DNA from: Escherichia coli
Lineage (GTDB): Bacteria > Pseudomonadota > Gammaproteobacteria > Enterobacterales > Enterobacteriaceae
Assembly (NCBI RefSeq): GCF_003018255.1
Contig: NZ_CP027441.1
Length of the DNA stretch: 64,000 nt
Reading direction: 5' to 3' (one strand)
Positions 12,001 through 15,000 of this stretch are shown here, in pieces. Within the stretch, counting starts at the first letter, position 1, and each line of letters begins with the position of its first letter. Made by a program: the position numbers.

Positions 12001-15000
12001 TTCATCCGCCATAATGCGCCACCTTGTCGACTATCCACGCAGGTCCGGTGACTTCCGGCAGCTCATCGTCATCTGTCGGGGAAGACCATTCCAGCTCCCC
12101 CCACAGCACATCAACGAGCTCTCCGCGCTCATACAACTGCCAGCCACAGAAATCACAGCCCTGTTCGGCATACCAGTGCTCCAGCGTGCAGCTGAAACGG
12201 CGGCTTAATTCTGCAACAACGTCGCTTTCCGGCTGACACCACGGCGTGTCGAAATCCACCTGAATGAAGTTTTCCCCCTGACTGCTGATATTCAGGTCAT
12301 ACCCACAAGGCCACTTCACGCCATACCGTTCTGTATACCAGTGATATGCAGAAGGAACACCGTTCAGAACACCACCGTTGAAGCCATTCACTTCAACATC
12401 CAGGCGGGTCGGCAGAACCGTCAGCAGGTCAAACGGCATGGTTTTTTCCGGCAGTACGTTGTCACACAGACGGTTCCACCACACCGATACATCCTCGTTA
12501 CTCCAGAAGCCACACCAGTCACCTCTTTTTGCGGTGAAAAGTACGGTGATGGTATCCCTGACATCGTCCGGTAATCCTTCCCAGCGACGCTGTCCAGTAC
12601 CGCTCTGCAGCCAGAGTTCATGCAGCATCAGGCAGTTTTGTTCATCCAGCAGTACACCGTTCTGCAGGTGTGTCAGCCAGCGGGTGAACGCGATATTCTC
12701 CGGCGATACAACGCCACGCCCGGCAGCCGTCAGTCCGGGGCATGGTTCAAACCGCACATCTTCAGTGGTCTGCAGAAGTCCGGCACTTCCGGCCAGAAAC
12801 AGCTGAATACCTTCATTTATGGCGCGGCGATAAAACGGTGTGACGGCACCACTGGCCAGTCGTTTAATCTCAGCGATCTGTGCCAGTTCACCAGAAAAAT
12901 GCATACGGTTACTGCACCAGTTTGGCATGGGAATTCTCCTCTCACATGCGGCCTCCATCAGGCCGTGCCGGCACGTTAACCGGGCGACCGCATACGAATG
13001 CAGGTGCGGCCCCGAAGCCGCAGCGCGTGGAGGAGGAACGACGAAACGTGACCGGGTGAGGAGGCCGGCGACAGCGACACACTTGCATCGGATGCAGCCC
13101 GGTTAACGTGCCAGCACGGCCTGGGTAACCAGGTATTTTGTCCACAGAACCGTGCACAAAATGCTGTGGATAAGCTGGACACAGCACTCCACAGCAGGCA
13201 TACAGCCACACCCTCAGAGAATTGATCGTTTTTTAGTCAGAACAATGACATTTGACTGTGTGCGGATTCAGTTATTAGAACACTGTATATGCATACAGCA
13301 AAAAGAGAAGGGAGATGAGAACATGATCCGCATTGAAATTCTTTTCGACCGCCAGAGCACAAAAAACCTCAAATCAGGCACACTTCAGGCGCTACAGAAT
13401 GAAATCGAACAACGTCTGAAACCACACTACCCGGAAATCTGGCTGCGTATAGACCAGGGCAGCGCCCCGTCTCTATCTGTCACAGGAGCCCGCAACGACA
13501 AGGATAAAGAACGTATCCTGTCTCTGCTGGAAGAAATCTGGCAGGACGACAGCTGGCTGCCTGCAGCATGAGTACCGTTTATCACCGTCCGGCTGACCCT
13601 TCAGGCGATGACAGTTACGTGCGACCGTTGTTTGCCGATCGTTGCCAGGCCGGTTTTCCTTCGCCTGCCACGGATTATGCTGAGCAGGAACTGGATCTGA
13701 ACAGCTATTGCATCAGCAGACCTGCAGCCACCTTCTTTCTGCGCGCCAGCGGTGAATCGATGAACCAGGCTGGCGTGCAGAATGGTGATCTGCTGGTAGT
13801 GGACAGGGCCGAAAAACCACAACACGGGGACATCGTTATCGCTGAGATCGACGGTGAGTTCACCGTCAAACGACTGCGGTTGCGCCCACGCCCGGCACTG
13901 GAGCCGGTTTCAGACAGCCCGGAGTTCCGCACACTGTATCCGGAAAACATCTGTATTTTTGGTGTTGTCACTCACGTGATCACAGGACGCGGGAGTTACG
14001 CTGATGTTTGCACTGGCTGATATCAACAGTTTCTACGCCTCATGTGAAAAAGTTTTCCGCCCGGACCTTCGCAACGAACCGGTCATCGTACTCAGCAATA
14101 ACGATGGCTGTGTGATCGCGCGCAGCCCGGAGGCAAAAGCCCTTGGCATCAGAATGGGGCAGCCCAGGTTTCAGGTGAGACAAATGCGCCTGGAGAAGAA
14201 AATACATGTATTTTCCAGCAATTATGCGCTGTACCACAGCATGAGCCAACGGGTTATGGCTGTTCTGGAGTCGCTTTCTCCCGCAGTTGAGCCCTACTCA
14301 ATTGATGAAATGTTCATTGATTTGCGGGGGATAAATCATTGCATCTCTCCGGAGGTTTTTGGTCATCAGCTCAGGGAACTGGTAAATAGCTGGACAGGAC
14401 TCACCATGGGGGTGGGCATTGCGCCTACAAAAACACTGGCTAAAAGTGCACAGTGGGCAACAAAGCAATGGCCACAGTTTTCCGGTGTGGTCGCGCTGAC
14501 GGCAGAAAACCGTAATCGGATCTTGAAGCTACTGGGGCTGCAGCCAGTTGGTGAGGTCTGGGGAGTAGGACGCAGACTGACGGAAAAGCTGAATGCGCTG
14601 GGTATTAACACAGCACTGCAACTGGCGCAGGCTAACACGGCATTCATCCGGAAAAACTTCAGCATCATTCTTGAGCGTACGGTACGCGAACTCAACGGCG
14701 AGTCCTGCATATCCCTGGAAGAAGCACCACCGGCAAAACAGCAGATTGTCTGTAGTCGCAGTTTTGGTGAACGAATCACAGACAAAAATGCCATGCACCA
14801 GGCTGTTGTTCAGTATGCAGAGCGGGCCGCTGAGAAACTACGTGGGGAGCGTCAGTATTGTCGGCAGGTGACGACATTTGTACGGACATCCCCCTTTGCA
14901 GTAAAAGAACCCTGTTACAGCAATGCCGCTGTGGAAAAGCTTTCATTGCCACACAGGACAGCCGGGACATTATTGCCGCCGCATGCAGAGCCTTAAACCA

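What the first reader, a model, noticed from the sequence alone, without database searches (positions are those of the whole stretch)
12960..13122. Third hairpin type: 25-bp near-perfect inverted repeat arms spaced ~112 bp apart, upstream of the 308-aa ORF
Arms at 12960-12984 and 13098-13122 are reverse complements with one mismatch. The element sits exactly where a promoter for the first (outermost) gene of the minus-strand leading cluster would be, and is back-to-back with the LexA-regulated imp promoter on the other strand. It may be a distinct single-strand promoter or initiation (ssi) signal.
Basis: seen in the sequence. Interest (0 to 1): 0.45.

Follow-up and report, generated by a model that had tools for sequence, protein, structure and literature searches.

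The report
Short single-stranded-DNA promoter hairpin
The inverted repeat is the stem of a DNA hairpin expected to form when this conjugative plasmid enters a new cell as a single strand; it is a compact, apparently unreported copy of a known family of single-strand promoters, placed to switch on the DUF1281 gene, so it is an ordinary extra member rather than a new kind of element.

Summary
The repeat is real: arms 12959-12985 and 13097-13123, 27 nt, one C·A mismatch, 111 nt apart. By chance about 1e-7 such repeats would be expected in the window.

It is not a separate third hairpin type. A covariance model built from 24 short homologues in Enterobacterales also finds the "class 2" single-stranded-DNA promoters (ssp2/Frpo3). 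These lie upstream of klcA and ardA in pESBL and F, where transcription starts were mapped by others. It also finds the window's own hairpins at 2325 and 9071. It does not find class 1 (Frpo/ssi) or class 3.

The fold is supported by compensatory changes and is strand-specific for the + strand, inferred by synteny to be the transferred strand. The right arm carries TTGCAT, a 15-nt spacer and TAACGT, the same layout as pESBL class 2 (TTGCAT-15-TAAGAT).

Homologues sit 13-34 nt upstream of DUF1281, methylase, KlcA and other genes typical of leading regions.

Most likely it is a compact class 2 promoter driving DUF1281 from incoming single-stranded DNA. No transcription data were available. This plasmid lineage has closed the usual mismatch bubble in the -10 box, which may weaken the promoter. 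I found no paper that describes this copy.

The parts
12954..13128 (+). Whole stem-loop element: a short-form member of the class 2 single-stranded-DNA promoter family. It folds on the + strand, which is inferred to be the transferred (T) strand.
   Evidence: Covariance model R1 matches full length at 132.5 bits on + against 40.5 bits on -. DNA fold is -57 kcal/mol. The family structure has 38 pairs, 15 of them with compensatory changes.
12959..12985 (+). Left arm. In the hairpin this is the template strand of the reconstituted promoter duplex. Positions 12968-12973 carry the lineage-specific changes that close the -10 bubble.
   Evidence: The left-arm segment GCCGGCACGTTAACC is the exact reverse complement of the right arm found in the majority variant (pESBL and F sequences).
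13097..13123 (+). Right arm. In the hairpin this is the non-template strand and it contains the -10 box. A13113 is the single mismatched base, opposite C12969.
13083..13088 (+). Putative -35 hexamer TTGCAT, paired within the stem.
   Evidence: Identical hexamer and spacing in pESBL and F class 2 hairpins. In the family the three positions are T 53/53, T 52/53 and G 50/53.
13104..13109 (+). Putative -10 hexamer TAACGT, 15 nt after the -35. It is fully paired in this plasmid; in most plasmids its two middle bases (AC) are unpaired.
   Evidence: Family consensus is TAnnGT: T 49/51, A 51/51, G 46/51, T 51/51. TAACGT is the commonest variant, and the spacer is 15 nt in 47 of 53 members.
12964..12968 (-). 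Predicted transcription start on the template (left) arm, giving a 5' UTR of about 37-40 nt. This is inferred, not measured.
   Evidence: Geometry only: 6-8 nt past the -10 on the right arm (13115-13117) lies opposite 12965-12967 on the left arm.
13015..13022 (+). Invariant apical motif AAGCCGCA.
   Evidence: Alignment A2. The motif is also present in class 2 long forms that the model found independently of the search pattern. Its function is unexplained.
13053..13060 (+). Invariant apical motif CGGGTGAG. It pairs in part with AAGCCGCA (helix 5).
   Evidence: Its function is unexplained.
12002..12928 (-). DUF1281 gene (308 aa; Pfam DUF1281 plus DUF1281_C; homologue of PDB 2ijr 'api92'). This is the gene the hairpin would drive.
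   Evidence: Annotation; Pfam; PDB.
13138..13173 (+). Adjacent pair of inverted DnaA-box-like sequences: TTGTCCACA at 13138-13146, and TTATCCACA on the - strand at 13165-13173. They are conserved next to the hairpin. Whether they belong to the same functional unit is uncertain.
   Evidence: As a single-stranded hairpin the pair is weak, -8.5 kcal/mol, z -1.8.

Best explanation
The repeat is the basal stem of a roughly 175-nt stem-loop that is expected to form on the transferred strand (the window's + strand) when the plasmid enters a recipient as single-stranded DNA. It is a compact relative, shorter by about 60 nt in the apical part, of the class 2 single-stranded-DNA promoters. These are called ssp2 in F and Frpo3 by another group, and they drive klcA/ardB and ardA.

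In the folded form the right arm supplies a sigma-70 type -35 (TTGCAT), a 15-nt spacer and a -10 (TAACGT). The left arm serves as template. RNA polymerase would start inside the stem at about 12965-12967 and read out of the hairpin base into DUF1281. Once the complementary strand is made, the hairpin no longer exists and the promoter is off.

What is shown here: the repeat itself, its fold, strand-specific selection for the fold, homology to class 2 elements, conserved boxes and spacing, and a conserved position upstream of genes typical of leading regions.

What is inferred: which strand is transferred, transcription from this particular copy, its start site, and its strength.

In this plasmid lineage five clustered changes in the left arm make it the exact complement of the right arm. 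This removes the mismatch bubble that normally lies in the middle of the -10 box. That is why the arms look near-perfect here, and it may reduce promoter activity or increase the hairpin's stability as an obstacle to replication.
For: Context. The window is an IncI-type leading region, 100% identical to NZ_CP027372.1 and syntenic with pESBL.

Homology.
- Model R1, built from short homologues only, finds pESBL 7598-7835 (5' of klcA, 85.8 bits) and 14545-14782 (5' of ardA, 87.3 bits).
- It finds F 16481-16719 (82.4 bits).
- It finds window 2325-2562 (51.1 bits) and 9071-9308 (47.1 bits).
- All these alignments run the full model length, 1-187.
- The class 3 hairpin (11676-11900) and class 1 copies (1109-1436 and 7269-7596) are not hit, so they act as negative controls.

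Published support for relatives. Wen et al. 2025 (PMC12672017) mapped transcription starts by 5' RACE for the class 2 hairpins 5' of klcA and ardA in pESBL.

Structure. 94.9% of cells are paired, against 32-41% when partners are slid by 1-3 columns. There are 111 double-sided changes against 37 in shuffles, with 0 of 500 shuffles reaching the observed value.

Strand. G·T pairs outnumber A·C pairs 44 to 4 in alignment A2 and 80 to 15 in A3. The model scores 132 bits on + against 40 on -. So the folding strand is the template of the downstream gene, not its mRNA.

Boxes. TTG, a 15-nt spacer and TAnnGT are conserved across 53 members. The A at -10 position 2 is invariant (51/51) although it is unpaired in the consensus structure. 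pESBL class 2 reads TTGCAT-15-TAAGAT and this element reads TTGCAT-15-TAACGT.

Position. Homologues lie 13-34 nt upstream of DUF1281, N6 DNA methylase, KlcA and other genes. Several copies occur per locus, all on one strand. In Pectobacterium a 72%-identical hairpin again precedes DUF1281.

No conventional promoter. No sigma-70 promoter-like site was found in 12700-13500. This is weak evidence, because the scan also missed the imp promoter.
Against: - No transcription data for this copy were available to me.
- Wen et al. report only six induced operons and six promoters in pESBL. As far as the text shows, DUF1281 is not among them. Its hairpin reaches only -70.5 kcal/mol in my re-run of their 300-nt screen, which used a -75 threshold, so it may simply not have been examined.
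- Another group reports failing to find a probable promoter upstream of the next gene cluster in F.
- The -10 box TAACGT matches only 3 of 6 consensus positions, and a 15-nt spacer is short for sigma-70.
- In the window's variant the -10 is fully base-paired. From my memory of the Frpo work, not checked here, that could lower activity.
- In F the DUF1281 gene is frameshifted although the hairpin is intact.
- One plasmid has DUF1281 without the hairpin.
- Covariation cannot by itself separate promoter function from another function of the folded strand.
- Which strand is transferred was inferred from synteny and the literature, not tested.
Confidence: 0.6

Rival explanations
1. The hairpin is a structural element of the transferred strand without meaningful promoter activity. 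It could be a decayed class 2 copy kept as a stable fold. Such a fold might slow or pause complementary-strand synthesis, as reported for ssp2 of F, or mark the outer border of the leading region.
For: A 2026 preprint (10.64898/2026.01.09.698686) shows that the homologous ssp2 stalls complementary-strand synthesis at the end of its stem and needs UvrD to be resolved. The window variant has an even more perfect basal stem, -57 against -50 kcal/mol. DUF1281 is not reported among the induced operons. F keeps the hairpin although DUF1281 is broken.
Against: The -10 and -35 letters and the 15-nt spacing are conserved in short forms across genera, including an unpaired invariant A. A pure roadblock would not need these. 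The fixed 13-34 nt distance to a start codon is promoter-like. According to the same preprint, a stable hairpin (ssp3) is not a roadblock, so stability alone does not predict that activity.
Confidence: 0.2
2. The hairpin is mainly a single-strand initiation (ssi) signal. It would make primer RNA or assemble a primosome to start complementary-strand synthesis, possibly together with the adjacent DnaA-box pair.
For: Frpo transcripts prime DNA synthesis in vitro and, according to the preprint, in vivo. The element lies at the distal end of the leading region, so a primer made here would be extended through the whole leading region. Two inverted DnaA-box-like sequences, conserved in IncI, IncF and a Klebsiella plasmid, lie 15 nt away.
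Against: There is no DnaA box in the hairpin itself. The DnaA-box pair folds only weakly as single-stranded DNA, z -1.8. Family members are spread along leading regions in front of individual genes, which fits promoters better than origins. Priming by a promoter transcript would be a second use of the same mechanism, not a true alternative.
Confidence: 0.1
3. The hairpin acts at the RNA level, as a 5' UTR structure, an RNase III site or an attenuator in a DUF1281 transcript that starts further upstream.
For: A 27-bp stem would be a good RNase III substrate. The - strand also folds well.
Against: Wobble statistics show that the selected strand is the complement of the mRNA: G·T 44 against A·C 4. 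The model scores 132 bits on + against 40 on -. There is no U-run after the stem on the - strand and no upstream promoter-like site.
Confidence: 0.04
4. The element is a miniature transposable element, or a terminator for the imp region.
For: It has terminal inverted repeats of 27 nt and is about 165 bp long. A small terminator-like hairpin with a T-run lies at 13119-13140 on the + strand.
Against: There is no target-site duplication: the flanks read CTCCAT and GGTAAC. Copies occur only in one orientation, directly upstream of leading-region genes. impC is transcribed away from the element. No + strand gene lies upstream that would need terminating.
Confidence: 0.02

Closest known systems
Class 2 single-stranded-DNA promoters of IncI1/IncF leading regions (Wen et al. 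2025, PMC12672017; ssp2 in preprint 10.64898/2026.01.09.698686; Frpo3 in preprint 10.1101/2025.04.03.647016)
   Same: Homologous in sequence and structure over the full model length. Same strand and same placement just 5' of a leading-region gene. Same -35 hexamer TTGCAT and same 15-nt spacing to a TAnnnT -10. Same apical motifs AAGCCGCA and CGGGTGA.
   Different: About 60 nt shorter: 175 nt against 238, because the apical domain is reduced. The basal stem is 5 bp shorter. It is less stable (-50 to -57 against -72 to -75 kcal/mol). The -10 is TAACGT rather than TAAGAT. It drives DUF1281 rather than klcA or ardA. It has not been tested experimentally. In this plasmid the -10 bubble is closed.
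'Frpo* 1' and 'Frpo* 3' low-certainty candidates of Samuel et al. 2024 (PMC11541004, Supplementary Table 2; the sequences match Candidatus Erwinia dacicola contig L061)
   Same: Same short-form subfamily, 185-186 nt. Frpo* 1 aligns at 65.5% over 174 columns. Both are in alignment A2 with the same fold and boxes.
   Different: They precede klcA-like and methylase genes, not DUF1281. Their apex carries the conserved GCTGAATG loop that the E. coli copy lacks.
Frpo / ssi1-3 (class 1) single-stranded promoters of F and ColIb-P9 (Masai and Arai 1997; Bates et al. 1999, cited)
   Same: Same proposed working principle: a hairpin on the transferred strand rebuilds a duplex promoter that is active only before complementary-strand synthesis. 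Same region and orientation.
   Different: No detectable sequence or model similarity. The class 1 copies in the window are at 1109-1436 and 7269-7596 and are not hit by R1. They are longer, about 330 nt, and have an A/T-rich core.
Class 3 single-stranded promoter (ssp3), 5' of the M.EcoGIX methylase
   Same: Same region, strand and role. In a Klebsiella IncF plasmid a class 3-type hairpin occupies the position upstream of DUF1281, so the classes are interchangeable at this position.
   Different: No similarity. Window 11676-11900 is not hit by R1, and pairwise BLAST finds only 7-8 nt words.

Membership tests
Class 2 ssDNA promoter (ssp2 / Frpo3) | Sequence and structure homology to the experimentally mapped class 2 hairpins of pESBL and F | tested here: met
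   Model R1, built without any class 2 sequence, hits pESBL klcA and ardA and F ssp2 at 82-87 bits (E about 1e-16) over model positions 1-187. The element itself scores 132.5 bits. Class 1 and class 3 are not hit.
Class 2 ssDNA promoter (ssp2 / Frpo3) | Lies in the leading region, folds on the transferred strand, and sits directly 5' of a gene whose template is that strand | tested here: met
   Gene order is syntenic with pESBL, from DUF1281 through to ardA, nikA and oriT. The stem base is 31 nt from the DUF1281 ATG. Which strand is transferred is taken from the literature, not tested.
Class 2 ssDNA promoter (ssp2 / Frpo3) | -35 and -10 boxes reconstituted in the 3' arm with the family spacing | tested here: met
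   TTGCAT (13083-13088), 15 nt, TAACGT (13104-13109). pESBL class 2 reads TTGCAT-15-TAAGAT. These are in silico matches only.
Class 2 ssDNA promoter (ssp2 / Frpo3) | Internal loop or mismatches in the middle of the -10 box | tested here: not met
   In the window variant all six -10 bases are paired. The feature is met in the majority variant (pESBL, F: TA[AC]GT) and in other genera. About 140 of 4378 plasmids match the window's left-arm segment at 99% or more. It is my own reading that this feature is defining.
Class 2 ssDNA promoter (ssp2 / Frpo3) | Transcription start inside the stem, active only on single-stranded DNA in transconjugants | not testable with these tools
   This needs 5' RACE or RNA-seq on early transconjugants, or in vitro transcription of single-stranded DNA.
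Class 2 ssDNA promoter (ssp2 / Frpo3) | Roadblock to complementary-strand synthesis that is relieved by UvrD | not testable with these tools
   Reported for F ssp2 only.
Frpo / ssi class 1 | Sequence similarity to F ssiD or ColIb ssi1-3 | tested here: not met
   BLAST of ColIb Frpo1 and Frpo2 against the window hits only 1109-1436 and 7269-7596. R1 does not hit those sites.
Miniature inverted-repeat transposable element | Target-site duplication and copies at unrelated sites in either orientation | tested here: not met
   The flanks CTCCAT and GGTAAC differ. All 53 family copies are co-oriented within each locus. The copies whose downstream ORF was examined sit just upstream of a gene start.
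Intrinsic terminator | Stem followed by a U-run, downstream of a convergent or co-directional gene | tested here: not met
   There is no T-run after the stem on the - strand. The + strand has a separate 6-bp hairpin plus ATTTTGT at 13119-13140, but no + strand gene lies upstream, and impC points away.
DnaA-dependent 'A-site' ssi (ABC primosome hairpin) | DnaA box within the stem of a hairpin on the single strand | tested here: inconclusive
   The 27-bp stem has no DnaA box. The neighbouring small repeat at 13138-13173 has two, one perfect and one matching 8 of 9 positions, conserved in F, pESBL, pO113 and a Klebsiella plasmid. It folds weakly. The family definition is recalled from memory.

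The most novel reading that the evidence does not exclude
The hairpin and the conserved pair of inverted DnaA boxes 15 nt beyond it form one unit at the distal border of the IncI/IncF leading-region module. In this reading DnaA or the primosome loads there to start complementary-strand synthesis through the leading region. The class 2-type hairpins, including this unreported seventh one, would set the timing through their invariant apical motifs (AAGCCGCA and CGGGTGAG), recognised by a host factor. The 'perfected' palindrome in this plasmid lineage would then be a natural switch from promoter to pure barrier.
Probability: 0.1. Interest if true: 0.6.

Novelty: new member of a known kind. Interest (0 to 1): 0.35.

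Why it matters
Single-stranded-DNA promoters decide which plasmid genes are expressed in the first minutes after conjugative entry, before host defences act. Published maps of pESBL and F list six and four such promoters.

This analysis adds a further candidate. It is present in about 4,400 sequenced IncI/IncF plasmids and would place DUF1281, a gene of unknown function, in the early programme.

The analysis also shows that class 2 promoters exist in short and long forms. These forms share a fold, a TTG-15-TAnnGT core and two invariant apical motifs across many Enterobacterales genera.

The covariance-model approach could find such promoters more sensitively than BLAST or a free-energy cut-off. 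The lineage-specific closure of the -10 bubble offers a ready-made natural mutant for testing what the mismatches do.

Tried and rejected
- Rfam gathering scan of the whole window: no family matched.
- Sigma-70 promoter scan of 12700-13500: nothing found, but it also missed the imp promoter, so it says little.
- MITE or IS reading: rejected, because there is no target duplication and copies have a fixed orientation and position.
- Integron attC reading: considered by eye only. The GTTAAC cores do not fit GTTRRRY. Dropped without a formal test.
- Terminator for imp: rejected on gene orientation.
- MAFFT alignment of the four window hairpins was not convincing for homology. Pairwise BLAST gave only weak collinear segments to class 2. 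The covariance model settled the question.
- I tried to learn from Wen et al. whether DUF1281 is induced and which hairpin is class 3. No supplementary files are held and the text does not say. I resolved the class 3 location by re-running their 300-nt energy screen (the first attempt timed out).
- Fomenkov et al. 2020 gave no promoter detail.
- One review could not be fetched, so the role of -10 mismatches in Frpo rests on my memory.
- One literature search on 'ssp1/2/3' returned mostly climate papers.
- Plasmid H82, which looked like a hairpin swap, turned out to be a rearrangement that removed the hairpin.
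Full report
**Observation.** The inverted repeat is there and is slightly longer than described. The arms are 12959-12985 and 13097-13123, 27 nt, with one mismatch (C12969 opposite A13113) and 111 nt between them. About 1e-7 such repeats would be expected by chance in 64 kb. As single-stranded DNA, 12940-13140 folds at -57 kcal/mol, and none of 200 shuffles folds as well on either strand. Pairing continues inside the arms, so the unit is one stem-loop of about 175 nt.

**Context.** The window is 100% identical to an E. coli IncFIB/IncI-gamma plasmid (NZ_CP027372.1) and related to pO113.
- On the minus strand, running towards lower coordinates, lie DUF1281 (12002-12928), an annotated 101-aa ORF, a DNA methylase (10933-11616), a KlcA/ArdB-type antirestriction gene (8609-9034), ssb, psiB, psiA and ardA (1784-2284).
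- The same order occurs in pESBL, where nikA and oriT follow ardA.
- By this synteny, and by the published rule that leading-region genes use the transferred strand as template, the window's + strand is the transferred strand. I did not test this directly.
- impC (13323-13571) is divergent, with a LexA box at 13283-13298.

**Other hairpins in the window**.
- Two class 1 Frpo/ssi copies: 1109-1436 and 7269-7596.
- Two hairpins with 32-nt arms: 2325-2562, 5' of ardA, and 9071-9308, 5' of klcA.
- One hairpin at 11676-11900, 5' of the methylase.

Wen et al. 2025 (PMC12672017) describe exactly this set in pESBL:
- class 1: ssi1-3;
- class 2: 5' of klcA and ardA;
- class 3: 5' of M.EcoGIX.

They mapped starts for all six by 5' RACE. 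I re-ran their 300-nt folding screen on the pESBL transferred strand. It places the class 3 segment (-91 kcal/mol) directly 5' of the methylase. The DUF1281 hairpin reaches only -70.5, below their -75 cut-off, so it would not have been examined.

**Distribution.**
- About 4,400 PLSDB plasmids carry the hairpin at 95% identity or more. They are IncI and IncF, mostly Escherichia, Salmonella, Shigella and Klebsiella.
- A Pectobacterium plasmid has a 72%-identical copy, again directly upstream of a DUF1281 gene.
- A pattern scan of one genome per species found 56 stretches. About two dozen of the matches, from 20 Enterobacterales loci, fold the same way. The genera are Pantoea, Erwinia, Cedecea, Pluralibacter, Kosakonia, Franconibacter, Rahnella, Siccibacter, Buttiauxella and Enterobacter.
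- Two of these are the 'Frpo* 1' and 'Frpo* 3' low-certainty candidates in Supplementary Table 2 of Samuel et al. 2024.
- Wherever enough flank was held, a gene starts 13-34 nt from the extracted hairpin segment on the opposite strand. The genes are DUF1281, an N6 DNA methylase, a KlcA-type antirestriction protein, and 155-aa and 263-aa proteins of unknown function.

**Structure.** In a MAFFT alignment of 24 copies, RNAalifold predicts 38 pairs, 15 of them with compensatory changes.
- 94.9% of cells are paired, against 32-41% when partners are slid by 1-3 columns.
- There are 111 double-sided changes against 37 in shuffles, with 0 of 500 shuffles reaching the observed value.
- G·T pairs outnumber A·C pairs 44 to 4. 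The covariance model scores 132.5 bits on the + strand against 40.5 on the - strand.
- So the selected fold is on the template strand of the downstream gene, which argues against an mRNA structure.

**Relation to known classes.** Model R1 was built only from short copies. It finds, over its full length:
- the pESBL class 2 promoters (85.8 and 87.3 bits);
- F ssp2 (82.4 bits);
- a Klebsiella klcA hairpin (130.7 bits);
- the window's 2325 and 9071 hairpins (51.1 and 47.1 bits).

It does not find class 1 or class 3. The element is therefore a short form of class 2, not a third type. Short and long forms occur together, co-oriented, at intervals of about 1-9 kb in many loci. Upstream of a 47%-identical DUF1281 gene in a Klebsiella IncF plasmid the hairpin is of the class 3 type, so the classes are interchangeable at this position.

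**Promoter features.**
- The right arm reads TTGCAT (13083-13088), 15 nt, TAACGT (13104-13109). pESBL class 2 reads TTGCAT, 15 nt, TAAGAT.
- Across 53 members the -35 TTG is nearly invariant. The spacer is 15 nt in 47 members. The -10 reads T(49/51) A(51/51) n n G(46/51) T(51/51), and TAACGT is the commonest form.
- The invariant A is unpaired in the consensus structure, so pairing does not explain its conservation.
- With the left arm as template, a start 6-8 nt past the -10 lies opposite 12965-12967. This gives a 5' UTR of about 37-40 nt. It is an inference.

**A peculiarity of this plasmid.** In pESBL, F and most plasmids the left arm reads GCCGCACCTGTAACC, which leaves the two middle -10 bases unpaired. 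Other genera have a similar bubble.
- The window reads GCCGGCACGTTAACC, the exact reverse complement of the right arm. That is five clustered changes, best explained by a templated (quasipalindrome) correction; this is an inference.
- There is also one new mismatch at 12969/13113.
- About 140 of 4378 plasmids match the window's left-arm segment at 99% or more.
- This is why the arms look near-perfect here. Whether activity is changed is unknown.

**What is not shown.**
- I could not see expression data for DUF1281.
- Wen et al. name six induced operons. Another group failed to find a promoter upstream of the next cluster in F.
- F keeps the hairpin but has a frameshifted DUF1281. One plasmid lost the hairpin through a rearrangement.
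- A structural role, such as the replication roadblock reported for ssp2, and a priming role remain open.

**Verdict.** The repeat is a compact member of the class 2 single-stranded-DNA promoter family, positioned to drive DUF1281 from the incoming strand. I found no paper in the held literature that describes this copy. It is a new member of a known kind and of modest interest.

Noticed in passing
window 13138-13173: Two inverted DnaA-box-like sequences: TTGTCCACA on the + strand, and a perfect TTATCCACA on the - strand at 13165-13173. They lie 15 nt beyond the hairpin. TGTGGATAA is invariant, and the partner box is DnaA-like, in the window, pESBL (TTATTCACA), F and a divergent Klebsiella IncF plasmid, where it sits next to a class 3-type hairpin. 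As a single-stranded hairpin the pair is weak (-8.5 kcal/mol, z -1.8). It could be a DnaA operator or a DnaA-dependent priming site.
   Followed up: partly
window 12968-12973 and 13113: The left arm differs from the form in most plasmids by five clustered changes that make it the exact complement of the right arm. This looks like a templated quasipalindrome correction. Only about 3% of plasmids carrying the element match the window's left-arm segment at 99% or more.
   Followed up: partly
window 11693-11998: The annotated 101-aa 'hypothetical protein' lies largely within the class 3 hairpin (11676-11900) and has no Pfam match. It is probably not a gene.
   Followed up: partly
window 2325-2562 and 9071-9308: The window's two class 2 hairpins have a 20-nt -35/-10 spacer, with 5 extra bases, and a changed left arm. 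They score 47-51 bits, against 86-87 bits for their pESBL counterparts. So this plasmid lineage has diverged at all three class 2-type hairpins.
   Followed up: partly
window 16545-16834: A 46-nt inverted repeat (76% complementary) whose ends resemble Tn3/Tn21-family terminal repeats (GGGGTCCGC...CACGCTAAG). The arms enclose about 200 bp, too small for a transposase. It may be a Tn3-derived miniature element.
   Followed up: no
window 15387-15465: An A/T-rich 20-nt inverted repeat (TTAAGTTGTTAATATAACAA / TTGTTAACTTAACAACTTAA) just upstream of the ParA-family gene at 15478. It may be an operator or a partition site.
   Followed up: no
L006 3721-3947 (K. pneumoniae plasmid CP094914.1): A DUF1281 homologue (47% identity) is preceded by a class 3-type hairpin instead of the class 2-type one. 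Hairpin classes are therefore exchanged as cassettes in front of the same gene.
   Followed up: partly
L063 12811-13781 (plasmid F, NC_002483.1 about 52810-53780): In F the DUF1281 reading frame behind the intact hairpin is split into two ORFs of 183 and 145 aa. It is apparently a pseudogene.
   Followed up: partly
L064 1545-1560 (E. coli plasmid NZ_CP027456.1): Here DUF1281 is present but the hairpin is absent. Homology to the window ends at the hairpin's left base (window about 12954), and an A/T-rich parM region follows.
   Followed up: partly
L005 102-6880 (Pectobacterium plasmid CP051629.1): Five co-oriented copies of the hairpin family, three long and two short, lie within 7 kb, each in front of a gene or short operon.
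   Followed up: partly
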